From Clostridia bacterium (GTDB lineage Bacteria > Bacillota > Clostridia > TANB77 > CAG-508), in the NCBI GenBank assembly GCA_022796725.1, contig JAAWJE010000017.1:1-50015 (forward strand): a DNA stretch of 50,015 nt. Reading direction: 5' to 3'. Shown here one piece after another: positions 3,835-50,015 of this stretch. The translations under genes and the position numbers were made by a program. The notes under the pieces were generated by a model. The model was not told where the DNA came from. It saw only the letters and a list, made by a program, of their open reading frames with translations, and made no database searches. Position 1 is the stretch's first letter, and each line of letters opens with the position of its first letter.

Positions 3835-3871
3835 ATAGAATCTTATAAAAAATATAGGGTTCTATTTTTTT
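3835..3871 (+). terminator. Rho-independent terminator after the DnaB-like gene
   Basis: Hairpin atagaatc/ggttctat followed by a T6 run. Confidence 0.6.
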
Positions 3872-3879
3872 ATAAAAAT

Positions 3880-3908
3880 TGAAACCAAAACCTTTTTTAA
3901 ATTGTATT
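3880..3908 (+). promoter_or_regulatory. Candidate ECF-type autoregulated promoter
   Basis: TGAAAC (3880-3885), 17 nt, then TGTATT. This resembles the B. subtilis ECF consensus TGAAAC-N16-CGTA and sits directly upstream of the ECF sigma gene. Confidence 0.3.
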
Positions 3909-3928
3909 AATAGTAGGAGGTAAAATTA

Positions 3929-4411
3929 ATGACTAGTCAAAAAGATATAATAAATATAATAGTAGAAGAATATTCAGATATGGTATATAGAATTGCACTT
4001 ATGAAAGTGAAAACGAAAGAAGAAGCGGAAGATATATATCAAGAAGTATTTTTTAAAATTAGCCAAAAGATGCCTAAATTTAAGTCTGAGGAACATAAAA
4101 AAGCATGGCTTATTAGAGTAACAATTAATATTAGTAATAATTATTTAAAGTCAGCTTGGAAAAGAAAAGTTGTAGGATTAGATGAAAATGTACAAGCTGA
4201 AGAATCAAATGATATAAGTAATGTTTATAGTGAAGTAAGCAAGTTACCAGAAGATTATAAAATAGTAATATATTTATATTATTATGAAGGATATAAAGTC
4301 TCAGAGATATCAAATATATTAGAAAAAAAGGAAAATACAGTAAAAACATGGCTTTCAAGAGCAAGAGAATTATTAAGACAAAAATTAGAAGGAGGTTTTG
4401 ATAATGAATAA
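3929..4411 (+). CDS. ECF-type RNA polymerase sigma-70 family factor
   Basis: 160 aa; region 2 (DIYQEVFFKI, KAWLIRVTIN) and region 4 HTH (YEGYKVSEISNILEKKENTVKTWLSRARELL); GGAGG SD. Confidence 0.85.
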   Translation: MTSQKDIINIIVEEYSDMVYRIALMKVKTKEEAEDIYQEVFFKISQKMPKFKSEEHKKAWLIRVTINISNNYLKSAWKRKVVGLDENVQAEESNDISNVYSEVSKLPEDYKIVIYLYYYEGYKVSEISNILEKKENTVKTWLSRARELLRQKLEGGFDNE

Positions 4412-25315: not shown

Positions 25316-28300
25316 ATGTATAATATGAGTATTAAAAGAAAAGAAAAAAAGTTATTAATTACTGGAATACTTATTATAATATTAAGTTCATTAATATTAT
25401 ATATAGTATTAAATCAATCAAAAATTAATGATGTAAAAGAAATTTTCAAAAAAGAGACAGTGAAACATTTAGATGATACTGGTAAAGAATTAGATCATTT
25501 ATACCTATCAGATATTTCATATAAAAGTGCAAAATCTGGACATGGAAGTATACTTATGGATAAGACAGCCTCAAATACTCAGATTACTTTGATGATTCAT
25601 GGAGCATCTACTGCTTTTGAAAAAGGAATATGGGCACATGCTACATCAGAGATAATATATGATCTTACTAATTATAATGAAAAGTATACATATTTTACAA
25701 CTTATTATGGTGTTTGCACAACTTCTGGAAATAGAGGAAATGGTGTTAAATTCTTTATTCAAACATCTAATGATTTAAAAACATGGACTAATGTAACAGA
25801 TGAATCACCTAAAGCTATGATGAGTTCTTATGATGCTAATTTTGCTAAAATAGATATTAGAGGTGTAAAATACTTAAAATTATATGCTAATGATAATGGT
25901 TCAAATGGAAATGACCATTCTGTTTGGGCAGATGCTAAATTAATAAAAGAAGGATATAAGGAACCAGGAGAAGAATTAGTTCCAACAGTAGAAGAATTAG
26001 ATAATAAAATAAAAACTAAATTTTCAACTGCAGATTTAACAAATAAAGAATATGAATTAACACTTCTTCAAAGAGAATTAATTAATAATGTTGGTCAATA
26101 TGCTTTAAGAAAATTTGTATCAGAGAGTGATTTAAACAAACAAACATATACATGGTTAACAGGAAATTTAGAAAATCTTCGTTTATATATTATGGGTGGT
26201 AAACCAGATGGAGGAAGTTACTATAATTCTTTAAATGTTTTATCTCAATTATATGATAAGTATAAGAGTGATTTTGAAATTAAAACTAAAACAAAGTATG
26301 GTACTGTACTAGGTGATTTATATAAAAGAATGGCAATTACACTTTCACTTACACATTCAAGTAGAGTAGCACTATGGATGCAACCTAGTGCACCAGAAAA
26401 TCAATCTAATGCAGTAACACGTTATCAAATATACAAGGACTTACATAAAAATGATAAGTTTGTTGTTTCAAGTAGACAAGATCATACAAAATGGTTTGAA
26501 GAATTAAAAGTAGAAGAAATGCGTTATGTTTTAAATAACATAATAGATGATGAAGAAATCTTATGGTTAAATGAATATACACAAAAATATATAGATGCAC
26601 ATCCAAATAAAGAAGAAGAATATTTACAACCACATCATTATATGAAATATATATGGCCAAATTATGGAAAAGCTGAATATCATGATGAGGCTAATAAAGA
26701 AATGTGGAGTAAAAAATATGGTAATTTTTTAGACTATGGAGTAACATTTAGACCAGGATTATATAAATTATGGATGAATTTAGACAATGGAGCTGTTTGT
26801 GGTGGTATTTCTAAAATTGGATCTAATATTCGTGCAGTTCATGGTACACCATCAGCAGTTATAGGCCAACCAGGACACGCAGCAATAATTTATTATAGAA
26901 AAGATGCACAAGGAAGAGGATATTGGTCAATAGATAATGATGTAAGTGGTTGGGCTCAATCAGAAAGAGGAGAAAGAAAGCCTCTTGGATGGGGTAATGA
27001 TAGTTATGTAAAAGGATATAATGCAACTTATATAATGCTAGCACAAGAAGCCTTAAACCATTTTGATGAATATGAGAAATCAGAAAAATTAATTATATTA
27101 GCAAGTATATATAATGATAATCCTACTAAAAAAGAACAATATTTAAGAGAAGCTCTTAAAGTTCAATCTTATAATATAGATGCTTGGTGGGAACTTATAA
27201 AATTATATCAAGCAGATAAAACAAAAACAGAAGCTGAATACTTTAGTTTAGCAGAGGAAATGGCTGAGAAACTAAAAGCATTTCCACTTCCAATGTATAA
27301 TCTAACTAATTTATTGAAAACTAATTTAAAAAGCCCAGAATATGCATTTGCATTTACATTACTTCAAAATCGTATTTTAACTGAAGGCAGTGTAGCAACA
27401 TCAGAAACTGTAGATGTTTACCAACCAAGTATTACAAGAACTGTTGCTAAGTATTTATTAGGTCAATTAGATAAAAATCTTGCAACATTCTCATTTGATG
27501 GAGAAAATGCTGGAAAAATTATATTATCAAGTCGTTTTGATGGTTCAGGAGTACGTTGGGATTATAGTTTAGATGGAAAAAATAAATGGAAAGAAGTTTC
27601 ATTTAGTGCAGATGAAGAACATAAATGGCAATTAACAAAAAATGAGATTGATAGTATTACAGCAGATACAGATATATATATTCATATAGTAGGTATGAAT
27701 TATGAAGAAAAAAATATATATAAAATAGATATTACGAAACAAGCAACTCCAACATTATATAATAATGACTTAGAAAATAGAGTAATGGGTACAACAGATA
27801 TAATGGAATGGCGTTTCAAAGATACAGACACATGGACATCTTATGCAAAAGAAGAACCTGATTTAACAGGAGATAAAACAGTACAAGTAAGAAAAGCACC
27901 TTCTGGAACAGGACTTGCAAGTGATATTATAACATTATCTTTTACACAAGATGATAACAATAATAAAAGAAAGTATATAAAAATTGCTCATTTATCAATA
28001 CACAATGTTTCATCTGAGGCGACTTCAAATCAAGGTAATGCAGCGTTTTGTATAGATGGAAATTATAATACAAGATGGCATTCAGCTTGGAATGGAAGTG
28101 ATAATAATAGATATATCACTATAAAATTAGATAAACCAGTTATGCTATCTGCCATGGAATATTTCCCTTGTGCAGGTGGTAATGGTAAAATATTACAAGC
28201 TCAAATTTTAGGAAGTATGGATGGAGAAAACTTTACTGAAATTAAAAATGTAACATGGGCAAATAATGATACAACAAAAACTATTGAATGGGAAGAACCA

Positions 28301-31063
28301 GTTAAGGTTCAATATATAAAATTAGTAGGAACTAGAACTTCAACAGCAGGTGGAGGAAGCTTTATTGGAGCTAGGATGTTTAACTTCTTTGAAGATGTAA
28401 CAGATTCTGACAAAGAAGCACCTACTGCTGATATTCAATATGATATTACTGAATTAACAAATAAAAATGTTGTAGCAAAACTTGTAAACCCAAGTAAAGA
28501 AATAACAATAACAAATAATGGTGGAAAAGATACATATACATTCACAGAAAATGGAGAATTTACATTTGAATTTGAAGATAACTCAGGAAATAAAGGAACA
28601 GCAAAAGCAAAGGTAGACTGGATAAGAAAAACAGCTCCTACAGCAACAATATCTTATAATATAAGTAAATGGACAAATAAAGATGTAGTAGCAACTTTAA
28701 ACTGCAGTGAAGAAATAACAGTAACAAATAATGATGGAAAGAAAACATATACATTCACAGAAAATGGAGAATTTGAATTTATTTATACAGATAAATTAGG
28801 GAATGAAGGAAAAGTTTTAGCAAAAGTAGTATGGATAGATAAAAAAGCACCAGTAGGAACAATAACTTATAACATTAATGATATGACAAATAAAGATGTA
28901 ATAGCAACTTTAAGCTGCAATGAAGAAATAACAGTAACAAATAATGATGGAAAGAAAACATATACATTCACAGAAAATGGAGAGTTTGAATTTATTTATG
29001 TAGATAAGGCAGGAAATGAAGGAAGAACGAAAGCAAAAGTAGACTGGATTCAAAAGAATGCTCCAAAGGCAAAAGTAGAATATGATATAACAGAATTAAC
29101 AAATAAAAATGTAACAGCAACTATATCAAGTGACGAAGAAATAATAATAACAAATAATAATGGAAGTAAAACATATGTATTTACAGAAAACGGAGAATTT
29201 ACTTTTGAATATGAAGATAGAGTAGGAAATAAAGGAAGAATAACAGCAAAAGTAGATTGGATACAAAAAGAAGCACCAAAAGCAATGGTAACATATGACA
29301 TAGAAAGTGCAACAAAAGAAAATGTAACAGCAACTTTAGAATGCACAGAAGATATCACAGTAATAAATAATGATGGAAGCAATATATATACATTTGTAGA
29401 TAATGGAGAATTCGAATTTATTTATACAGATAGAGCAGGAAATGAAGGAAGAACTTTAGCAAAAGTAGATTGGATAGATAGAATAGCACCAGTAGCAAAA
29501 GTTATATATGATAATACTAAACCAACAGCAAATAATGTAATAGCAACTTTAGAATGTGACGAAGAAATAATAGTAATAAACAATGAAGGAAGTAAAACTT
29601 ATACATTCACAGAAAATGGAGAATTTGAATTTATCTATGAAGATAAAGCAGGAAATGAAGGAAGAACTTTAGCTATAGTAAATTGGATAAATAAAGAATT
29701 ACCAGAAGTAAAAATAAAATATGACATAGAAGAATTAACAAGAGAAAATGTAACAGCAACTTTAGAATGTGAAGAAGAAATTACAATATTAAACAATGGT
29801 GGAAGTAACACATATGTATTTACAGAAAACGGAAGCTTTGAATTCCAATATATAAGTAAAGAAGGATTAACAGGATATATAACAGCAACAGTAGATTGGA
29901 TACAAAGAGAAGCACCAGAAGCAAGAGTAGAATATGATATAATAGAATTAACAAATAAAAATGTAACAGCAACTTTAGTATGCGATGAAGAAATAGAAAT
30001 AGTAAACAATGATGGTAATAATAAATATGTATTTACAGAAAACGGAGAATTCGAATTTATTTATACAGATAGAGCAGGAAATGAAGGAAGAGTATTAGCT
30101 AAGGTAGATTGGATAAATAAAAAAGTAGCTATGGCAAAAGTAGAATATGATATAAAAGAGTTAACAAATAAAAATGTAATAGCAACTTTAGTATCAGATG
30201 AAGAAATAGAAGTGACAAATAATGATGGAAAAAATACATATGTATTTACAAAAAACGGAGAGTTTGAATTTGAATATATAGACAAATTAGGAAACAAAGG
30301 GACAGTACTAGCAAAAGTAAGTTGGATACAAAAAGAAGCACCAAAGGCAACAGTAAAATATGATATAAAAACAGCAACAAATAAAGAGGTAACAGCAACA
30401 TTAGAATGTGAACAAGAAATAATAATAACAAATAATGTGGGAAGAAACACATATGTATTTACAGACAATGGAGAATTTGAATTTATATATTTAGATAAAT
30501 TAGGAAATAGAGGAACAGCACTAGCAAAAGTAGACTGGATAGATAAGAAAGCACCAAAAGCGACAGTAAAATATGATATAAAAACAGAAACAAATAAAAA
30601 AGTAACAGCAACATTAGAATCAGAAGAAGAAATAATAATAACAAATAATGATGGAAAAAATACATATATCTTTACAGAAAATGGAGAGTTTGAATTTATA
30701 TTTACAGACAAAGCAGGAAATGAAGGAAGAGCAATAGCCAAAGTAGATTGGATAGTAAAGAAAACAGATACAGATAAAGATGATGACAAGAATGATAATA
30801 AAGGTGATAAAGACGATACAGATAAAGATAATGATAAAAATGATAAAGATAGTAACCAAAACAATAACAAAGACTCAAATTCAAACAGTGATAAAAATTA
30901 TGAAGAAGACAGAGAAGATACAAGTAATAAAATAAAAGTACCATTTACAGGTACATATATTAATGTAACAGCTGTTAGAATAGGACTTGGAATACTTCTA
31001 GTAGTATTAATAGGAATAGCAGTTTATATTTCAAAAAAATTAAAGAAGCATAATAATAAATAG
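25316..31063 (+). CDS. Giant multidomain surface protein (NPCBM-like, Cys/His/Asp module, F5/8 type C, 11 Ig-like repeats, sorting-like tail)
   Basis: 1915 aa with an N-terminal signal anchor. NPCBM-like segment (LYLSDISYKSAKSGHGSILMDK...GIWAHA). Discoidin-like segment (GNAAFCIDGNYNTRWHSAW). 11 tandem 71-72-aa repeats. D/K/N-rich linker. C-terminal VPFTG plus TM plus KKLKKHNNK tail. Confidence 0.85.
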   Translation: MYNMSIKRKEKKLLITGILIIILSSLILYIVLNQSKINDVKEIFKKETVKHLDDTGKELDHLYLSDISYKSAKSGHGSILMDKTASNTQITLMIHGASTAFEKGIWAHATSEIIYDLTNYNEKYTYFTTYYGVCTTSGNRGNGVKFFIQTSNDLKTWTNVTDESPKAMMSSYDANFAKIDIRGVKYLKLYANDNGSNGNDHSVWADAKLIKEGYKEPGEELVPTVEELDNKIKTKFSTADLTNKEYELTLLQRELINNVGQYALRKFVSESDLNKQTYTWLTGNLENLRLYIMGGKPDGGSYYNSLNVLSQLYDKYKSDFEIKTKTKYGTVLGDLYKRMAITLSLTHSSRVALWMQPSAPENQSNAVTRYQIYKDLHKNDKFVVSSRQDHTKWFEELKVEEMRYVLNNIIDDEEILWLNEYTQKYIDAHPNKEEEYLQPHHYMKYIWPNYGKAEYHDEANKEMWSKKYGNFLDYGVTFRPGLYKLWMNLDNGAVCGGISKIGSNIRAVHGTPSAVIGQPGHAAIIYYRKDAQGRGYWSIDNDVSGWAQSERGERKPLGWGNDSYVKGYNATYIMLAQEALNHFDEYEKSEKLIILASIYNDNPTKKEQYLREALKVQSYNIDAWWELIKLYQADKTKTEAEYFSLAEEMAEKLKAFPLPMYNLTNLLKTNLKSPEYAFAFTLLQNRILTEGSVATSETVDVYQPSITRTVAKYLLGQLDKNLATFSFDGENAGKIILSSRFDGSGVRWDYSLDGKNKWKEVSFSADEEHKWQLTKNEIDSITADTDIYIHIVGMNYEEKNIYKIDITKQATPTLYNNDLENRVMGTTDIMEWRFKDTDTWTSYAKEEPDLTGDKTVQVRKAPSGTGLASDIITLSFTQDDNNNKRKYIKIAHLSIHNVSSEATSNQGNAAFCIDGNYNTRWHSAWNGSDNNRYITIKLDKPVMLSAMEYFPCAGGNGKILQAQILGSMDGENFTEIKNVTWANNDTTKTIEWEEPVKVQYIKLVGTRTSTAGGGSFIGARMFNFFEDVTDSDKEAPTADIQYDITELTNKNVVAKLVNPSKEITITNNGGKDTYTFTENGEFTFEFEDNSGNKGTAKAKVDWIRKTAPTATISYNISKWTNKDVVATLNCSEEITVTNNDGKKTYTFTENGEFEFIYTDKLGNEGKVLAKVVWIDKKAPVGTITYNINDMTNKDVIATLSCNEEITVTNNDGKKTYTFTENGEFEFIYVDKAGNEGRTKAKVDWIQKNAPKAKVEYDITELTNKNVTATISSDEEIIITNNNGSKTYVFTENGEFTFEYEDRVGNKGRITAKVDWIQKEAPKAMVTYDIESATKENVTATLECTEDITVINNDGSNIYTFVDNGEFEFIYTDRAGNEGRTLAKVDWIDRIAPVAKVIYDNTKPTANNVIATLECDEEIIVINNEGSKTYTFTENGEFEFIYEDKAGNEGRTLAIVNWINKELPEVKIKYDIEELTRENVTATLECEEEITILNNGGSNTYVFTENGSFEFQYISKEGLTGYITATVDWIQREAPEARVEYDIIELTNKNVTATLVCDEEIEIVNNDGNNKYVFTENGEFEFIYTDRAGNEGRVLAKVDWINKKVAMAKVEYDIKELTNKNVIATLVSDEEIEVTNNDGKNTYVFTKNGEFEFEYIDKLGNKGTVLAKVSWIQKEAPKATVKYDIKTATNKEVTATLECEQEIIITNNVGRNTYVFTDNGEFEFIYLDKLGNRGTALAKVDWIDKKAPKATVKYDIKTETNKKVTATLESEEEIIITNNDGKNTYIFTENGEFEFIFTDKAGNEGRAIAKVDWIVKKTDTDKDDDKNDNKGDKDDTDKDNDKNDKDSNQNNNKDSNSNSDKNYEEDREDTSNKIKVPFTGTYINVTAVRIGLGILLVVLIGIAVYISKKLKKHNNK
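28415..30760 (+). repeat. 11 tandem coding repeats of 213-216 bp
   Basis: Each unit reads roughly (E/K)AP.A.V.YDI.ELTNKNVTATL.C.EEI.ITNNDG.NTY(V/T)FTENGEFEFIY.DKAGNEGR.LAKVDWI.K. The first unit is 72 aa and the other ten are 71 aa. Confidence 0.9.
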
Positions 31064-45189: not shown

Positions 45190-48100
45190 ATGAAATCAAT
45201 TAGTACAAAAAGAATTACTTTAGTCGTTGTACTTTCTATGATTATTTTGTTGTCATTATCTCAAAGTGTATTTGCAGCTAGTAAATCTGTATCAAAAGTA
45301 AAAAACGTAAAAGTAAAGACGAAAACAACATCAAGTATTACAGTAAAATGGAAGAGAAATCCTTACGTAACAGGATACAGAGTATATATGAAAAAACGGA
45401 AAAAATTCAAAATATACTAGAATAGTAACAATAAAGAATAGAAATATAACATCATATAAGAAGAGAGGATTAAAAGAAGGTAAGAAATATTACTTTAAGG
45501 TAAGAGCATATAGACAAACTAGAAACTCTAAAAAATTTGGAGCATATTCAAAAGTTATAAAAGCTCAAACTAAAAAAAGACTTTCAAAACTTAAGTTAAG
45601 TGTAAATACATCTTCAAAGAAATATACTAGAAAAGCTATAAAAACAAAAGTATCAATAAAAGATGGTAAAAAGACATTAAAATATAAAAAAGATTATACT
45701 GTAAGTTATAAAAATAATGTTAATCCAGGAACAGCAACAGTAATTATTAAAGGAAAAGGCAATTATACAGGAACAATTAAAAAGAAATTTAAAATAGTAG
45801 TAGGAAAAATAAGTAATTTAAAGGTAAAAAGCCAATCATCATCTGATGTAACTTTAGGATGGAATAGAGATCCAGTTGTAACAGGATATGAAGTATATAT
45901 GGCAACTAGTAAAGGCGGAAAATATAGTAGAATATCAACAATTACTAGAAATAGTGTAACATCATATAAAAAGACAAAACTAACAAAAAATAAAACATAT
46001 TATTTTAAAGTAAGAGCATATAAAATAGTAAAAGGAAAAAAGAAATATGGCGCATATTCAAATATTGTAAGTGCAACACCAAAAGAAAATGCAGTAGGAA
46101 ACTTAAATATTATGCAAAGTATGATAAAAAATAATACTTTAACAGTTGAAAATAAAACTTACTTAAATGTTACAATTTCACAAGATGTAAAAGAAGATTC
46201 ACAAATTAACTTAAATAATATTACTATAAAAGGAAAATTAACTTTAAATGAACCAAAAAGATATAGATTAAATATTACAAATACAAATTTAAGCAATATG
46301 GAAGTAGTAAAAGTAGCTACAAAGGCATATAATGCAGCAAATGTATATAATCAAATAATTGATGGTCCAACTGTTAATTTTGAAAATTGTAGCAATATGA
46401 AAAAAATAGATATTAATGGAAATATTGAAATTAATGGTGCAAATACAGCAGAAACAATAAATATTAATTCTGGAAGCGAAATATCATTAGGTATTCCTTC
46501 TAATGAAGTTATTGTAAATTCAAATCCAGTAGACTCAGTGATAGCAATTAATAAAGATGTTAAGAATATTGTTAATAAAAAAGATAATGTTAATTTTATG
46601 ATTAATTCTAATATTAATGATATAACAAACAATGGAAAAAATAGCAAAATAATGATATCTACTGATAAAAAAGTAAGCAATTTAGCAAATAATGCTGAAA
46701 ATACATTTATTTCTGGAAAAGGAAGTATTGAGAAATTAACAATTTCAGAAAATGCAAAAAATACAAAAGTTTTTGTTAAAACTACAACTCAGCCAGTAGT
46801 AGAAGCAGATGATACTTTTATATTAGAAGAAAAAGACTTTGCTATACAATCAGTAGAGCCAAAAAGTCAAGGAAATGTTACATTTACTTTAAACAAACCA
46901 ACTTCAAAAAAATTAACTCTTGCAGATGTTTCTATATATTGTGGAAGAGGAAGTGAAACAGCTATCTTTTCTATTGAAAGTAAAGATAATAAGACATATA
47001 ATTTAACAACATCATATTATAAAGATGGTATATTTGGTTTATATGTAACATTACCAAATGGAAATATTATAAGTAAAGATTTTAAATGTGAATATTCAAA
47101 TCCAACAGTTAATAAATCAGTAGTAATAAGAACAGCAAAAGACAAAGCAGAATTAGAATTATATGGTGTTGATGAAGGTGGATATTTATATTATGTTTTA
47201 GAAGCTCCAGGTGCACAAAATATAAATCAAGCTCATATTAAAGCAAAAGGAACAAAAGTACAAGTAAAAACAGAATATAATAAAATTAATATATCTGGTT
47301 TACAAGAAGGTAAATCTTATGAATTATATTATGTAATAGAAGGATTTTATAAAAATACTTCTAGTGTAAAAGGACCAATTGAAGTACCAAGTAAAGTACA
47401 AGAAGTTGATAAAAGTGATATTTTTATAGAATATGCAGCAGAAGAAAGTTGTAATACATTTGTAATTAGATTAAATAAAGTACCTGAAAAGAAACTTGTT
47501 TTATCAGATTTTAGTATTAAATGTCCAACTCAATCAAAATTAACAATATCAGGTGCAAAATTTACAACAAGTGTAGATAGATTAACTTATTATTTAAAAG
47601 TTCCAGATAATTATGGGCATAAAGATAATAAATATACAGTTGAAGTAAATGTTGGAAGTAAAAAAATAAATAAATCTTTTGTTTCACATTTTGACCCTCC
47701 AGCAATTACTGGTGAAAAAATAACTAGAACTGGTAAAAATGAAGCTAAATTAACATTTAATTCTGATGAGCCAGGAAAGATGTATTATGGTGTTTATGAG
47801 TGGAATAGAGGAATATATGTAGGAGATTCTACAACTCCACTTGCAGAAAATGTACTAAAAGCAGTAGCAAATGGAACATTAGCAAAAGAACCACTTAAAG
47901 GAAAAGAAAAGGTTCTTGTAGCAGGACCAAATGATTTAACTGTTGATTTAAGCAATATAGAAATAACAAGAACAACAAGAATATGGGTATTATTTGTTGA
48001 TAATGCAGGAAATTATAGAAATGGTTTTGTTTCACATTTTGGAAGTATTCCAGAATATGTAGGCGGAGGAGAAGAAGAAAATAAAAGTACATTAAAGATT

Positions 48101-48358
48101 ACATCAGTTGATGTTACTAACAAAAGTATTAAAATTAATTTTAATGAGGAAATAGGTTATATGGGAAATTCTGATATAGAATTACAAGGAAGTGGTCTTC
48201 CAGCTAAGATAACTTATAGTACTTCTTTAGAATCTAAGAGTGCATATATTGAATTATTAAACTGTACATTATCAGCAGGAAAATATAAAATAATAATAAC
48301 ACCAACAGATTCAAAGGATAATGTTGTTACATTAGAATATGAATTTGAGATAAAATAG
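45190..48358 (+). pseudogene. Large secreted Fn3/Ig-like repeat surface protein interrupted by a +1 frameshift in an A-tract
   Basis: A signal peptide plus the start of an Fn3 module ends at TAG 45418. The frame open from 45392 continues the same Fn3 module (KNGKNSKYTRIVTIKNRNITSYKKRGLKEGKKYYFKVRAY...) and runs with no ATG into track ORF 45899..48358. The shift window 45392-45417 contains two A6 runs. Confidence 0.7.
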
Positions 48359-48366
48359 AAATGTAG

Positions 48367-48401
48367 GAAATACTCACTAAAAAGTGGGTATTTCTTTTTT
48401 T
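48367..48401 (+). terminator. Rho-independent terminator
   Basis: gaaatactcac/gtgggtatttc stem plus T7. Confidence 0.75.
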
Positions 48402-48411
48402 CAAAATAAAA

Positions 48412-48499
48412 GTGGTGTCAAAAAGATGTAAAATACATTAAAAAATGATATCAAAAAAGTGTAAAAGATATTTGAAAGTGGTATTAAAAAAATGCAAAA
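48412..48499 (+). repeat. Three 22-bp direct repeats phased at exactly 33 bp
   Basis: GTGGTGTCAAAAAGATGTAAAA (48412), ATGATATCAAAAAAGTGTAAAA (48445), GTGGTATTAAAAAAATGCAAAA (48478). Consensus: rTGrTrTyAAAAArrTGyAAAA. Confidence 0.7.
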
Positions 48500-48552
48500 T
48501 AAAATATTAATACTCCTAATAAAAGTTTATGCAATAAATAAACTCATAGTGT

Positions 48553-48581
48553 TTGACAAAAGAGAAAAATCTATATATAAT
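48553..48581 (+). promoter_or_regulatory. Perfect-consensus sigma-A promoter (P-left of the IR cassette)
   Basis: TTGACA (48553-48558), exactly 17 nt, then TATAAT (48576-48581). No CDS lies downstream; the predicted TSS is near 48588, inside the left inverted repeat. Confidence 0.65.
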
Positions 48582-48585
48582 AAAA

Positions 48586-48615
48586 ATAGAAAATGAGAAT
48601 AAGCAGAGTGTGTTG
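48586..48615. repeat. Left arm of the perfect 30-bp inverted repeat
   Basis: atagaaaatgagaataagcagagtgtgttg. Its reverse complement is found exactly at 48862-48891. Confidence 0.95.
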
Positions 48616-48672
48616 TCCGAATAAAACTTAAATAACCGTTTACTCGACCAAAAGCAGAACGGTTATTTTTTA
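48588..48672 (+). ncRNA. Predicted ~85-nt small RNA (candidate antisense/antitoxin RNA)
   Basis: It starts about 7 nt after the consensus -10 and ends at the intrinsic terminator (10-bp stem 48631-48640/48658-48667 plus a T-run). It has no ORF or SD. Its 3' ~40 nt are antisense to the 3' end of the convergent small ORF transcript. Confidence 0.4.
48631..48672. terminator. Bidirectional intrinsic terminator shared by convergent transcripts
   Basis: aataaccgtt/aacggttatt 10-bp stem with a 17-nt loop. T6 follows on the + strand and TAAGTTTTATT on the - strand. Confidence 0.6.
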
Positions 48673-48786
48673 TTGCCTATGTAGTAAAAAACAGATGATG
48701 ATTAACAAGGCAATATTTATGATAGTTACTCCTACTAATCCATAGAGAAGTAGGTATGTAATAGTTGTTATTGATGTTTCTACCAT
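48670..48786 (-). CDS. 38-aa hydrophobic peptide (candidate type I toxin-like membrane peptide)
   Basis: My translation: MVETSITTITYLLLYGLVGVTIINIALLIIICFLLHRQ. SD GGGGGTGG 5 nt upstream of the ATG; one predicted TM; the stop codon abuts the terminator hairpin. Below the ORF-track cutoff. Confidence 0.4.
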   Translation of the reverse strand: MVETSITTITYLLLYGLVGVTIINIALLIIICFLLHRQ

Positions 48787-48861
48787 ATTAACCACCCCCA
48801 TATATCAATCTCACAAACTAAGTTGTGGAGGGTTATGTATAATCTAAGATGTAAAAGGTGG

Positions 48862-48891
48862 CAACACACTCTGCTTATTCTCATTTTCTAT
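48862..48891. repeat. Right arm of the perfect 30-bp inverted repeat
   Basis: caacacactctgcttattctcattttctat is the exact reverse complement of 48586-48615; 246-bp spacer. Confidence 0.95.
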
Positions 48892-48892
48892 G

Positions 48893-48921
48893 ATTATAAC
48901 TATACAACTTTATTATAAGAA
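48893..48921 (-). promoter_or_regulatory. Candidate weaker sigma-A promoter (P-right) driving the small-ORF transcript
   Basis: On the minus strand, TATAAT (48898-48893) lies one nt outside the right IR arm. The -35 at 17-nt spacing is a poor TTCTTA. Confidence 0.3.
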
Positions 48922-49062
48922 ATACAAGCGAACATTCAAAGATTATTTTTATTAATTATAAAAAAGAAAAGAATAGTAAAATATTTAAGAAAGTAATGTA
49001 TGAATAATATCAATAGTGATATTTTCTATAAACAGTTTTCTAAAAGGTAACTTGTATAAATA

Positions 49063-49091
49063 TTGACAATTAGGTAAAAATAGTTTAAAAT
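49063..49091 (+). promoter_or_regulatory. Sigma-A promoter of the aspS T-box leader
   Basis: TTGACA, 17 nt, then TAAAAT. Confidence 0.55.
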
Positions 49092-49139
49092 ATTAAATTA
49101 GCTGAATAAATTAATAAGTACAGCTAATTTAAAAAGTTA

Positions 49140-49340
49140 AATTGATTTGCTATGAAGATGAAAAGTAATAGACAATATTATTTTATAGAGAATAAATGCC
49201 AAGGCTGAAAGCATTTTAAATAATACTATTATGAAACACATTGGAGCAAAGATTATAAGGTGGGAATATATTTCCAAATAGGGTGGTACCGCGGAGGAAT
49301 AATCTTTCGTCCCTTTTATAGGGATGAAAGATTTTTTGTT
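49140..49340 (+). promoter_or_regulatory. T-box riboswitch leader
   Basis: Stem I with AGTA/AGAGA elements. Conserved T-box AATAGGGTGGTACCGCGG at 49277-49294. Terminator atctttcgtccct/agggatgaaagat plus T6 at 49303-49338. Immediately upstream of an aminoacyl-tRNA synthetase gene. Confidence 0.85.
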
Positions 49341-49374
49341 TTCATTCCAAATGAATAAAAAGGAGAGATGAAAA

Positions 49375-50015
49375 ATGAATGAGTACAGAGATTATACATG
49401 TGGAGAGTTAAGAGAAAAACATGTAGGACAGCATATTAAACTTGCTGGTTGGGTTCAGACAATAAGAGATTTAGGAGGAGTAATATTTATTGATTTAAGA
49501 GACCAATATGGAATTACTCAAATAGTTGCATCTGGAAATCAGGAATTAGTTGACTTTGCAACAAAAATACCAATAGAGTCAACAATATCAGTAGAAGGAA
49601 CAGTAAGATTAAGAGATGAAGAAACAATAAACAGAAATATTGAAACAGGAACGGTAGAATTATTTGCAGAAGAATTTAAAATATTAGGAAAAAGAACAAA
49701 GCAATTGCCATTTGAAATTGAAACAAGTAGAGAAGTTAGAGAAGATTTAAGATTGCAGTATAGATATTTAGATTTAAGAAATCCAAAATGCAGAGATAAT
49801 ATAATTTTAAGAGCAAAAATAATTCAATTTTTAAGAAATGAAATGATAAAAAGAGGATTCTTGGAAGTACAAACTCCAATACTTACAAGTTCATCTCCAG
49901 AAGGGGCGAGAGATTATCTAGTTCCTAGCAGAATATATCCAGGAAAATTTTATGCACTTCCACAGGCACCACAACAATTTAAACAATTATTAATGGTATC
50001 TGGAATAGACAAATA
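49375..50015 (+). CDS. aspS: Aspartyl-tRNA synthetase (5' part, runs off the window)
   Basis: YTCGELREKHVGQHIKLAGWVQTIRDLGGVIFIDLRDQYGITQIV, LRLQYRYLDLRN, SSPEGARDYLVPSR and ALPQAPQQFKQLLMVSG match bacterial-type AspRS; AAGGAG SD. Confidence 0.9.
   Translation, partial: MNEYRDYTCGELREKHVGQHIKLAGWVQTIRDLGGVIFIDLRDQYGITQIVASGNQELVDFATKIPIESTISVEGTVRLRDEETINRNIETGTVELFAEEFKILGKRTKQLPFEIETSREVREDLRLQYRYLDLRNPKCRDNIILRAKIIQFLRNEMIKRGFLEVQTPILTSSSPEGARDYLVPSRIYPGKFYALPQAPQQFKQLLMVSGIDK

What the first reader, a model, noticed from the sequence alone, without database searches (positions are those of the whole stretch)
48670..48861. Hidden 38-aa hydrophobic peptide gene with SD-sequestering leader: candidate type I toxin
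On the minus strand, GGGGGTGG lies 5 nt before the ATG at 48786. The ORF encodes MVETSITTITYLLLYGLVGVTIINIALLIIICFLLHRQ, a single TM helix with a short polar N-terminus and a basic end. That is the size and shape of Fst/TxpA/BsrG-type membrane toxins. Its ~100-nt 5' UTR contains two tracts able to pair with the SD. CCACCUUU lies immediately after the IR-derived leader (complement of 48853-48860). CCCUCCAC (complement of 48824-48831) would pair with mismatches. Its stop codon runs into the terminator shared with the convergent RNA from the stronger promoter. A weak toxin promoter, a strong antisense promoter, 3' overlap and SD occlusion are all hallmarks of type I toxin-antitoxin loci. This peptide family and its IR-bounded context are not ones I recognise.
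Basis: inference. Interest (0 to 1): 0.7.

Follow-up and report, generated by a model that had tools for sequence, protein, structure and literature searches.

The report
Unannotated toxin-antitoxin-like peptide/sRNA module
A real but unannotated 38-residue membrane-peptide gene faces a small antisense RNA gene across a shared terminator; the pair recurs about 130 times in uncultured gut Clostridia and looks like a previously undescribed family of RNA-controlled (type I) toxin-antitoxin modules, though toxicity is untested.

Summary
The minus-strand ORF 48786-48670, its strong SD, the upstream CCACCUU tract, the consensus convergent promoter, the shared terminator and the inverted repeat are all present.

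Comparative data make it a gene family. I found 132 homologous modules in 130 sequences from uncultured gut Clostridia. In 117 the peptide model matches full-length from an ATG. pN/pS is 0.48 in frame, against 0.88 and 1.41 out of frame.

The whole ~400-nt module is conserved:
- a weak toxin promoter (TTGTAT-17-TATAGT);
- an SD:anti-SD helix;
- a covarying hairpin upstream of the SD;
- a bidirectional terminator with large complementary loops;
- a ~90-nt sRNA from a near-consensus promoter.

Some copies have a decayed toxin gene but an intact sRNA. Several contigs carry more than one module.

No Pfam, NCBIfam, PHROG, PDB or Rfam family matches. The architecture is closest to Enterococcus par (Fst/RNA II), but the 5' repeats are inverted. 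The two RNAs therefore start identically rather than complementarily, and no second pairing region exists.

The 30-nt perfect repeat is unique to this window (7-15 nt elsewhere). It replaces the sRNA's usual 5' hairpin.

Verdict: a likely new type I toxin-antitoxin family. Toxicity and transcripts are untested.

The parts
48899..48927 (-). Toxin promoter: -35 TTGTAT (48927-48922), 17-nt spacer, -10 TATAGT (48904-48899). It is weak because the -35 matches the consensus at only 3 of 6 positions.
   Evidence: Sequence. The same TTGTRT-N17-TATAKT lies at the same position upstream of the ORF in at least 35 loci. No consensus promoter is found there in any of 117 modules.
48878..48891 (-). 5' core motif AUAGAAAAUGAGAA at the predicted start of the toxin mRNA (TSS about 48891-48888). 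The same motif starts the sRNA.
   Evidence: The core is shared by both RNAs in most modules, with 7-15 nt of exact identity.
48863..48876 (-). Leader segment AAGCAGAGUGUGUU. It is complementary to the 5' arm and first loop bases of the toxin mRNA's own terminator (AACCGUUCUGCUU, 48668-48656). This is a candidate long-range 5'-3' helix.
   Evidence: RNAduplex places this pairing at the same position in nearly all loci (median -16 kcal/mol, median z -1.9). Complementarity is subfamily-specific in L037 and in L042/43/47/48. It is not part of the single-sequence MFE folds.
48855..48863 (-). Anti-SD tract UGCCACCUU.
   Evidence: The RNAalifold consensus pairs it with the SD. The helix has 9 pairs and 96.6% of cells paired, against 42-54% in slid controls. 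The tract is present in 99 of 117 modules.
48810..48830 (-). Local hairpin CUCCACAAC-UUA-GUUUGUGAG just upstream of the SD.
   Evidence: The helix has 6 pairs, 4 of them with compensatory double changes, and 97.8% of cells paired.
48792..48799 (-). Shine-Dalgarno sequence GGGGGUGG, 5 nt before the ATG.
   Evidence: An SD of this type is present in 110 of 117 modules. It is predicted paired with P of about 0.5-1.0 in single-sequence partition functions of nine loci, although the partner differs between loci.
48670..48786 (-). 38-codon ORF plus stop: MVETSITTITYLLLYGLVGVTIINIALLIIICFLLHRQ. It is the candidate membrane toxin.
   Evidence: The family consensus is MVExALLxITYLLFYGLVGVTIINxALLIIICxLLHRQ. 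pN/pS is 0.48.
48731..48754 (-). Hairpin inside the coding region: CCUACU / AGUAGG with a 12-nt loop. Synonymous sites here are unusually conserved, and CTA/CTT Leu codons are used in a 25% GC genome.
   Evidence: L039 carries a compensatory C:G to U:A change. The function of this hairpin is unknown.
48619..48676 (.). Bidirectional intrinsic terminator: stem 48630-48640 / 48658-48668, a 17-nt loop, and U runs on both strands. This is the only region where the two RNAs are necessarily complementary, about 55-60 nt.
   Evidence: (I11). No other consistent sRNA-mRNA complementarity was found (median z 0.1).
48553..48581 (+). sRNA promoter TTGACA-17-TATAAT (12 of 12 consensus matches).
   Evidence: The strict form is present in 84 of 123 modules, and a looser form plus the 5' motif in 110 of 123.
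48588..48676 (+). Candidate antitoxin sRNA of about 89 nt: a single-stranded 5' core, then (in this window only) a copy of the toxin leader in place of the family's 5' hairpin, an A-rich linker, and the terminator hairpin with its U tail.
   Evidence: In 33 of 35 distinct family sRNAs the fold contains a 6-bp 5' hairpin with varying arm sequences (for example AACCAC/GUGGUU, AAUCAC/GUGAUU, AACUAC/GUAGUU). No Rfam match was found.
48580..48615 (.). Left arm of the inverted repeat. The right arm is 48862-48897.
   Evidence: The exact shared stretch is 30 nt here and 7-15 nt in the other 119 modules measured.

Best explanation
This is one copy of a previously undescribed family of type I toxin-antitoxin-like modules in low-GC uncultured gut Clostridia. 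Its organisation resembles Enterococcus par (Fst/RNA II).

Proposed mechanism (inferred unless marked as shown):
1. A weak promoter makes a ~270-nt mRNA for a 38-aa single-pass membrane peptide.
2. The mRNA keeps itself untranslated. An upstream UGCCACCUU tract pairs with the very strong SD. The segment just 5' of that tract can pair with the mRNA's own terminator arm, closing the molecule.
3. A near-consensus convergent promoter makes an ~89-nt sRNA, presumably in excess.
4. The sRNA's terminator hairpin is the exact complement of the mRNA's terminator hairpin. The two large loops (15-17 nt) would allow a kissing contact. That contact would extend into a duplex of about 55-60 bp over the mRNA's 3' end.
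5. The duplex would then trigger decay (RNase III-type) and/or lock the inactive fold.
6. When the sRNA is lost, or the mRNA is processed at its 5' end, the SD opens. The peptide is made, inserts into the membrane and arrests growth.

Shown here: gene reality, conservation of every element, the promoter asymmetry, and the consensus structures.

Inferred only: both transcripts, the direction of regulation, the RNase involved, and toxicity.
For: Coding:
- 132 modules were found, and in 117 the family HMM matches full-length from an ATG.
- pN/pS is 0.48 in frame and 0.88 / 1.41 in the other frames. Position-2 entropy is lowest.
- In the 49-locus alignment, length differences between intact ORFs are whole codons.

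Module conservation across different genomic contexts:
- toxin promoter TTGTRT-17-TATAKT;
- sRNA promoter TTGACA-17-TATAAT.

RNA structure:
- The SD:anti-SD helix and a covarying hairpin appear in the consensus fold, and slid controls collapse.
- The SD is predicted paired in nine loci folded singly.
- The leader-to-3'UTR duplex sits at a constant position, with subfamily-specific complementarity.
- The sRNA architecture is conserved.

TA-like population behaviour:
- Frameshifted, start-lost or 5'-truncated toxin genes sit next to an intact sRNA gene: L032, L045, L038, L041, L003b.
- Two modules lie on one contig in L003 and L017, and the two in L017 belong to different subfamilies.
- Many copies lie at contig ends.

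The general organisation matches published descriptions of Gram-positive type I systems (PMC7472228; PMC8594479).
Against: - There are no expression, toxicity or membrane data.
- The window's own 5' UTR fold is not more stable than shuffled sequence.
- Single-sequence folds choose different SD partners in different loci.
- The SD:anti-SD helix shows only one-sided changes.
- The leader-to-terminator helix is not in any single-sequence MFE. Its per-locus z-scores are modest.
- The peptide lacks the long charged tail typical of Fst-type and many other type I toxins. Its net charge is 0.
- The window's sRNA lacks the family's 5' hairpin. The window peptide also carries a substitution at a nearly invariant position (F14L). 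This particular copy may therefore be atypical or attenuated.
Confidence: 0.72

Rival explanations
1. The module encodes a non-toxic small membrane protein, for example a stress-responsive or accessory subunit-like peptide. A cis-antisense sRNA tunes its expression. The RNA anatomy is the same as in the main explanation, but nothing is addictive or toxic.
For: - Everything shown here is about gene reality and RNA architecture. Nothing measures toxicity.
- The peptide has no long charged tail and no similarity to any validated toxin.
- Several copies sit among housekeeping genes rather than on mobile elements.
Against: - More than one copy can lie on a contig, and divergent subfamilies sit side by side.
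- Toxin-gene decay is repeated while the sRNA is retained.
- A very strong SD is kept occluded, and a weak-versus-consensus promoter asymmetry is preserved in every module.
- These traits are typical of type I TA loci and unusual for an ordinary accessory protein.
Confidence: 0.17
2. The inverted repeat at the two transcription starts is a recombination site (an inverton). Inverting the ~250-bp segment between the arms would swap promoters. The consensus promoter would then drive the toxin and the weak one the sRNA, giving a phase-variable switch.
For: - A repeat core (ATAGAAAATGAGA) sits exactly at both predicted starts in nearly all modules.
- The arms co-vary within loci: L075/76, L059, L001, L029, L034.
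- This window shows a gene-conversion-like tract between the arms.
Against: - No consensus promoter is found upstream of the toxin in 117 modules.
- All 60 strict sRNA-promoter matches that belong to a scored module lie downstream on the opposite strand.
- No other locus joins the strong -10 to a toxin-type leader.
- No conserved recombinase gene lies nearby, because the genomic contexts differ.
- The core is short.
Confidence: 0.03
3. The region is a non-coding repeated or mobile element (MITE-like, bounded by inverted repeats), and the ORF is fortuitous.
For: - An inverted repeat is present, the element is multi-copy, copies are often found at contig ends, and insertion contexts vary.
Against: - The substitution pattern is frame-specific and the ATG, SD and stop are conserved.
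- The repeat arms lie inside the conserved module, next to the -10 boxes, and not at its boundaries.
Confidence: 0.03

Closest known systems
par of Enterococcus faecalis pAD1 and par-like loci (Fst toxin / RNA II antitoxin; Fst/Ldr superfamily)
   Same: - Convergent promoters.
- A shared bidirectional intrinsic terminator whose complementary stem-loops can start the RNA-RNA contact.
- A small antitoxin RNA (about 65-90 nt) that overlaps only the 3' UTR and not the body of the ORF.
- An intramolecular stem that sequesters the SD.
- A candidate 5'-to-3' intramolecular helix.
- A toxin of about 30-40 aa with a single TM helix.

The par features are taken from PMC7472228.
   Different: - In par the 5' repeats DRa/DRb are direct in the DNA, so the RNAs are complementary at the toxin's translation start. 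Here the repeats are inverted, so the RNAs are identical there. No second complementary region exists.
- The peptide lacks the [PDST]xxxG motif and the highly charged C-terminal tail.
- It does not hit Pfam or NCBIfam Fst models, and hhalign probability is 0.6%.
- The leader helix does not include the extreme 5' end.
Bacillus subtilis 3'-overlapping type I systems (bsrG/SR4, txpA/RatA, bsrE/SR5, yonT/SR6)
   Same: - Convergent genes, with antisense pairing at the 3' end of the toxin mRNA.
- An SD partly buried in mRNA structure.
- BsrG is also 38 aa and has an Asn in mid-helix. This is from my own knowledge, and the sequence was recalled from memory.
   Different: - In those families the antisense RNA is longer and overlaps the ORF (PMC8594479). 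Here it reaches only the stop codon.
- There is no peptide homology: hhalign probability is 1.9% for BsrG and 0.4% for TxpA.
- Those systems sit in prophage-like regions. Here the contexts examined are housekeeping genes.
hok/sok of plasmid R1 (fbi-tac 5'-3' fold-back)
   Same: The candidate pairing of the toxin mRNA's 5' leader with its own 3' end resembles the fold-back that keeps full-length hok mRNA inert. The hok mechanism is established knowledge. The candidate here rests.
   Different: - Gene organisation, antisense position (5' in hok) and peptide family all differ.
- The helix here is short (about 13 bp) and competes with the terminator hairpin.

Membership tests
Type I toxin-antitoxin system (general definition) | Small (about 20-60 aa) hydrophobic protein encoded on a short mRNA | tested here: met
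   A 38-aa ORF with one TM-length hydrophobic stretch. Coding is supported by pN/pS of 0.48 and by 117 of 132 modules matching the family HMM full-length from an ATG.
Type I toxin-antitoxin system (general definition) | An antisense RNA gene whose product is complementary to the toxin mRNA | tested here: met
   A convergent near-consensus promoter and a terminator define an ~89-nt RNA that overlaps the mRNA 3' end by about 55-60 nt. The transcript itself has not been observed.
Type I toxin-antitoxin system (general definition) | Toxicity of the protein on expression, and neutralisation by the RNA | not testable with these tools
   This needs inducible expression with and without the sRNA. The only indirect hints are decayed toxin genes next to intact sRNA genes.
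par / Fst-RNA II family | Convergent promoters sharing a bidirectional intrinsic terminator with complementary loops | tested here: met
   The feature list is from PMC7472228.
par / Fst-RNA II family | Direct repeats (DRa/DRb) transcribed in opposite directions, which make the antitoxin complementary to the toxin's translation initiation region | tested here: not met
   The repeats at the two 5' ends are inverted, so the RNAs are identical there. RNAduplex of the sRNA 5' part against the mRNA gives no consistent site (median z 0.1).
par / Fst-RNA II family | Intramolecular stem sequestering the SD (5'-SL) | tested here: met
   The consensus helix pairs UGCCACCUU with GGGGGUGGU, with 96.6% of cells paired and slid controls at 42-54%. 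Changes are one-sided only, so the support is consistency rather than covariation.
par / Fst-RNA II family | [quoted passage not shown] | tested here: inconclusive
   A leader-to-3'UTR helix is predicted at a constant position with subfamily-specific complementarity. It leaves the first ~13 nt unpaired and is not in the MFE folds.
par / Fst-RNA II family | [quoted passage not shown] | tested here: not met
   The family consensus lacks the motif, and the tail is only H-R/K-Q. An aromatic residue (F/W/Y) at position 33 is the only resemblance. No Pfam or NCBIfam hit was found even at E up to 10. hhalign probability is 0.6%.
TxpA/RatA and BsrG/SR4-type families | Peptide homology, and an antisense RNA overlapping the ORF 3' part | tested here: not met
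   hhalign probabilities are 1.9% and 0.4% against sequences recalled from memory. The sRNA ends at the stop codon. The organisation criterion is from PMC8594479.
Any Rfam antitoxin or sRNA family | Covariance-model match | tested here: not met
   cmscan at E up to 1 over 47800-50015 returns only the neighbouring T-box and chance-level hits. The best hit on the sRNA is STnc240, at 25.5 bits against a gathering score of 55.
Invertible promoter element (inverton) | Both orientations of the segment between the repeats present in populations | tested here: not met
   None of 117 assembled modules has the swapped arrangement. Read-level data were not available, so rare inversion is not excluded.

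The most novel reading that the evidence does not exclude
The identical 5' ends of toxin mRNA and antitoxin sRNA may be a functional shared 'handle'. The core AUAGAAAAUGAGAA is conserved at both transcription starts across about 120 modules, and the two arms often carry the same variant within a locus.

One common factor could act on both RNAs or both promoters at once. Candidates are an RNA chaperone or RNase at the A/G-rich 5' tail, or a DNA-binding regulator at +1 to +14. That would couple the synthesis or decay of toxin and antitoxin in a way not described for type I systems.

A more radical version is that the repeat mediates rare inversion, which would swap the strong and weak promoters.
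Probability: 0.15. Interest if true: 0.7.

Novelty: new variant of a known kind. Interest (0 to 1): 0.55.

Why it matters
[quoted passage not shown] T1TAdb lists 24 families, mostly from cultured model species (PMC8594479).

This family is essentially invisible to annotation:
- One protein-database homologue was found by word search.
- Only 23 representatives were found among 1.84 billion proteins, and many of those are mis-called as longer ORFs.

Despite that, it is present in many uncultured Clostridia from human, mouse, rabbit and ruminant guts.

If the peptide is toxic, the family would add a new membrane-toxin fold-class and a compact sRNA-controlled switch from abundant gut commensals.

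It would also be a natural comparison for par. The chassis is the same (convergent promoters, bidirectional terminator, SD-sequestering stem), but the second pairing site is replaced by identical 5' ends. That arrangement raises a specific, testable question about how the antitoxin blocks translation from the 3' end alone.

Tried and rejected
1. Known-family searches. Pfam, NCBIfam, PHROGs, PDB sequence profiles and Rfam gave nothing above chance.
2. hhalign of the family profile against BsrG, Fst and TxpA, using sequences recalled from memory. Probabilities were below 2%.
3. A par-like or SprA1-like second pairing site between the sRNA 5' part and the toxin mRNA. No consistent site was found (median z 0.1). 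A 6-8 nt match of the 5' core to the loop of the coding-region hairpin was noticed. I dropped it as too short and AU-rich to test.
4. A conserved upstream mini-ORF starting at the AUG in the 5' core (MRISGVCCHL). I rejected it because the AUG is lost in several loci and the stop position is not conserved.
5. RNAalifold on the MAFFT alignment of sRNAs gave a meaningless consensus (-0.12 kcal/mol), because indels misalign the hairpins. Per-sequence folds were used instead.
6. RNAalifold on whole mRNAs was noisy.
7. The MITE reading. The repeat arms are internal to the conserved module.
8. The inverton reading. No swapped arrangement was found in 117 modules.
9. A regex tabulation of arm-to-arm covariation failed technically. 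The examples are used only as anecdotes.
10. Phage origin. Only one IMG/VR contig carries a module. It lies near the contig end, next to Spo0E-like, HTH and DUF5780 genes, so phage origin is not supported.
Full report
**What is there**

On the minus strand an ATG at 48786 opens a 38-codon ORF that ends at TAA 48672-48670.
- GGGGGTGG (48799-48792) lies 5 nt upstream of the ATG.
- The product is MVETSITTITYLLLYGLVGVTIINIALLIIICFLLHRQ. It is a single hydrophobic helix with E3 at one end and H-R-Q at the other (GRAVY 1.63).

On the plus strand there is a 12-of-12 consensus promoter, TTGACA-17-TATAAT at 48553-48581. It points at the ORF's 3' end.

Between the two lies a palindromic terminator:
- The stem is 48630-48640 / 48658-48668 with a 17-nt loop.
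- T runs follow it on both strands.
- The plus-strand run overlaps the stop codon.

A 36-nt inverted repeat (48580-48615 / 48862-48897) starts at each -10 box. The longest exact stretch shared by the arms is 30 nt, and a 29-nt core matched twice against 0 expected. Both convergent RNAs would therefore begin with the same ~30 nt.

The genome has about 25% GC. The neighbours are housekeeping genes (YceG, an SPFH protein, an aminotransferase) and a T-box-controlled class II Asp/Asn-type tRNA synthetase gene.

**It is a gene family**

Finding relatives:
- A word-indexed protein search found one homologue, P0001 at 76% identity. Its locus conserves the whole ~370-nt module in a different genomic context, after a spo0A-like gene.
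- Back-translated pattern scans found 47 loci in GTDB species representatives. All are uncultured Clostridia or Clostridium MAGs from mouse, rabbit, human and roe-deer guts.
- The same scans found one IMG/VR contig and 80 metagenome contigs.
- An HMM of the peptide finds 132 modules in these 130 sequences.

Evidence that the ORF is coding:
- In 117 modules the HMM matches full-length from an ATG.
- An SD of the GGGGGTGG / GGAGGTGG type is present in 110 of 117.
- In the 49-locus alignment, length differences between intact ORFs are whole codons.
- pN/pS is 0.48 in frame, and 0.88 and 1.41 in the other two frames. Codon position 2 is the least variable.

The consensus peptide is MVExALLxITYLLFYGLVGVTIINxALLIIICxLLHRQ. 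A shorter subfamily ends in ...ILSK.

Exhaustive HMMER over 1.84 billion representative proteins finds only 23 relatives. Many are called with spurious N-terminal extensions. The family is therefore effectively unannotated.

**The RNA module is conserved as a whole**

*Toxin side*
- The promoter is TTGTAT-17-TATAGT.
- The leader begins with AGAAAAUGAGAAU, followed by AAGCRGAGUGUGUU and then UGCCACCUU.
- After a variable spacer comes a hairpin, CUCCACGAC/GUUGUGAG, and then the SD.
- RNAalifold on 30 distinct leaders pairs UGCCACCUU with the SD and predicts the hairpin.
- Pair counting for the named structure gives 96.4% of cells paired, against 42-54% when partners are slid.
- The SD helix (9 pairs) shows only one-sided changes.
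- The hairpin (6 pairs) has compensatory double changes in 4 pairs.
- Single-sequence partition functions put the SD in a paired state in all nine loci tried. The preferred partner varies: the CCACCUU tract, the CCUCC of the hairpin, or a tract near the ORF's 3' end.
- For the window alone, the leader fold is not better than shuffles.

*sRNA side*
- A strict TTGACA-N16-18-TAnAAT promoter is present in 84 of 123 modules. A one-off variant plus the 5' motif is present in 110 of 123.
- None of 117 modules has a consensus promoter on the toxin side.
- The sRNA is about 85-100 nt. It consists of a single-stranded AUAGAAAAUGAGA, a 6-bp hairpin, an A-rich linker, a terminator hairpin with a ~15-nt loop, and a U tail.
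- The 6-bp hairpin's arms vary in concert: AACCAC/GUGGUU, AACAC/GUGUU, AAUCAC/GUGAUU, AACUAC/GUAGUU, AGCCAC/GUGGUU.

**How the two RNAs can meet**

The only dependable complementarity is the overlap at the bidirectional terminator, about 55-60 nt in the window. RNAduplex of the non-overlapping sRNA 5' part against the whole mRNA gives no consistent site (median z 0.1).

This differs from par. There, direct repeats make RNA II complementary to the fst initiation region (PMC7472228). Here the repeats are inverted, so the RNAs share sequence instead of pairing.

**A candidate 5'-3' helix**

The leader segment AAGCRGAGUGUGUU is complementary to AACCAUUCUGCUU. That target is the 5' arm plus the first loop bases of the mRNA's own terminator.
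- RNAduplex finds this duplex at the same place in nearly every locus (median -16 kcal/mol, median z -1.9).
- In divergent subfamilies both partners differ but still match. L037 has AAGCAGAUGUGUG with CACACAUUUGCUU. L042/43/47/48 have ...GUGAGUGCU with AGCACCAC....
- Cross-subfamily energies are clearly worse for those leaders.
- The helix would abut the anti-SD helix and close the mRNA, in the manner of the par upstream helix or the hok fbi-tac fold-back.
- It competes with the terminator hairpin and is absent from the MFE folds. I treat it as inferred.

**Population behaviour**

Some copies have a decayed toxin gene next to an intact sRNA gene:
- frameshifts in L032, L045 and the second copy in L003;
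- 5' truncations in L038 and L041.

L023 has its start codon changed from ATG to ATA, but its contig ends before the sRNA gene. L017 and L035 have lost the promoter and leader.

Two contigs carry two scored modules. L003 has them in tandem. L017 carries one copy of each subfamily. Many copies lie at contig ends. These traits are typical of type I TA loci.

**The inverted repeat**

Across 120 modules with both flanks, the exact repeat is 7-15 nt, with the core ATAGAAAATGAGA. The window's 30 nt is a unique outlier.

In the window, a copy of the toxin leader has replaced the sRNA's usual 5' hairpin. This most simply reflects gene conversion between the arms. No other locus joins the strong -10 box to a toxin-type leader.

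The arms carry the same variant in several loci: L075/76, L059, L001, L029 and L034. That suggests conversion, or selection for identity.

I considered an inverton (promoter swap). No swapped arrangement was found in 117 modules.

The role of the shared 5' core remains unexplained.

**Comparison with known systems**

No Pfam, NCBIfam, PHROG, PDB or Rfam family matches. Profile comparison with BsrG, Fst and TxpA is at chance level.

Functionally, the module works most like par-type loci: convergent promoters, a bidirectional terminator, an SD-sequestering stem, and a small RNA that overlaps only the 3' UTR. It fails two defining tests for membership. It has no DRa/DRb complementarity, and it lacks the Fst peptide signature.

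It also differs from the B. subtilis 3'-overlap families, whose antisense RNAs cover part of the ORF (PMC8594479).

**Verdict**

The locus is best described as a member of a new, unannotated, par-like type I toxin-antitoxin family of gut Clostridia (confidence about 0.7). Toxicity, the transcripts and the mode of antitoxin action are still to be shown.

This particular copy is atypical. Its sRNA lacks the family's 5' hairpin, and its peptide carries F14L at a nearly invariant position.

Noticed in passing
window 48408-48506: Three tandem 33-nt A-rich repeats (AAAAGTGGTGTCAAAAAGATGTAAAATACATTA and two copies at 76% and 79% identity) lie between the terminator of the 819-aa ORF and the sRNA promoter. 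They were not seen at the other loci I read. Their function is unknown.
   Followed up: no
window 49063-49375: A near-consensus promoter (TTGACA-17-TAAAAT, 49063-49091) precedes a T-box leader at 49143-49317 (82 bits, below Rfam's gathering score of 93, E 1e-17). The T-box has a terminator-like hairpin at 49301-49333. It lies upstream of a class II Asp/Asn-type tRNA synthetase gene that starts at 49375.
   Followed up: partly
window 45899-48358: An 819-aa ORF immediately upstream has no Pfam domain at E<=1e-5. It is rich in repeated beta-strand-like segments, which suggests a surface protein. It ends with its own terminator at 48365-48396. A 1915-aa ORF at 25316-31063 was not examined.
   Followed up: no
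L017 1590-1950 (minus strand) and L003 780-1170: Second modules lie on the same contig. L017 carries a copy of the short ...ILSK subfamily about 1 kb from a main-type copy, in the opposite orientation. L003 carries a frameshifted second copy about 860 nt downstream of the first.
   Followed up: partly
window 48731-48754 (minus strand), inside the ORF: A hairpin CCUACU/AGUAGG lies inside the coding region. Synonymous sites there are almost invariant and rare CTA/CTT Leu codons are used. L039 keeps the pair through a C:G to U:A double change. This suggests an RNA-level constraint within the ORF.
   Followed up: partly
P0008, P0016, P0020: In some database entries the family peptide runs on past the normal stop into 30-120 extra residues of low-complexity sequence. 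This suggests stop-codon loss or assembly errors in those copies. Other entries (for example P0002 and P0015) are N-terminally extended mis-calls that start in the 5' UTR.
   Followed up: no
window 48745-48747 (codon 14, CTC): The window peptide has Leu at position 14. In the codon table of 33 distinct ORFs, 31 have Phe. Together with the sRNA's missing 5' hairpin, this copy may be functionally altered.
   Followed up: no
L049 (IMG/VR contig, module at about 3840-4230): The only viral-collection hit lies about 280 nt from a contig end. Its neighbours are a Spo0E-like gene, a Cro/C1-type HTH gene and a DUF5780 gene. It may mark a prophage border or a misclassified bacterial contig.
   Followed up: partly
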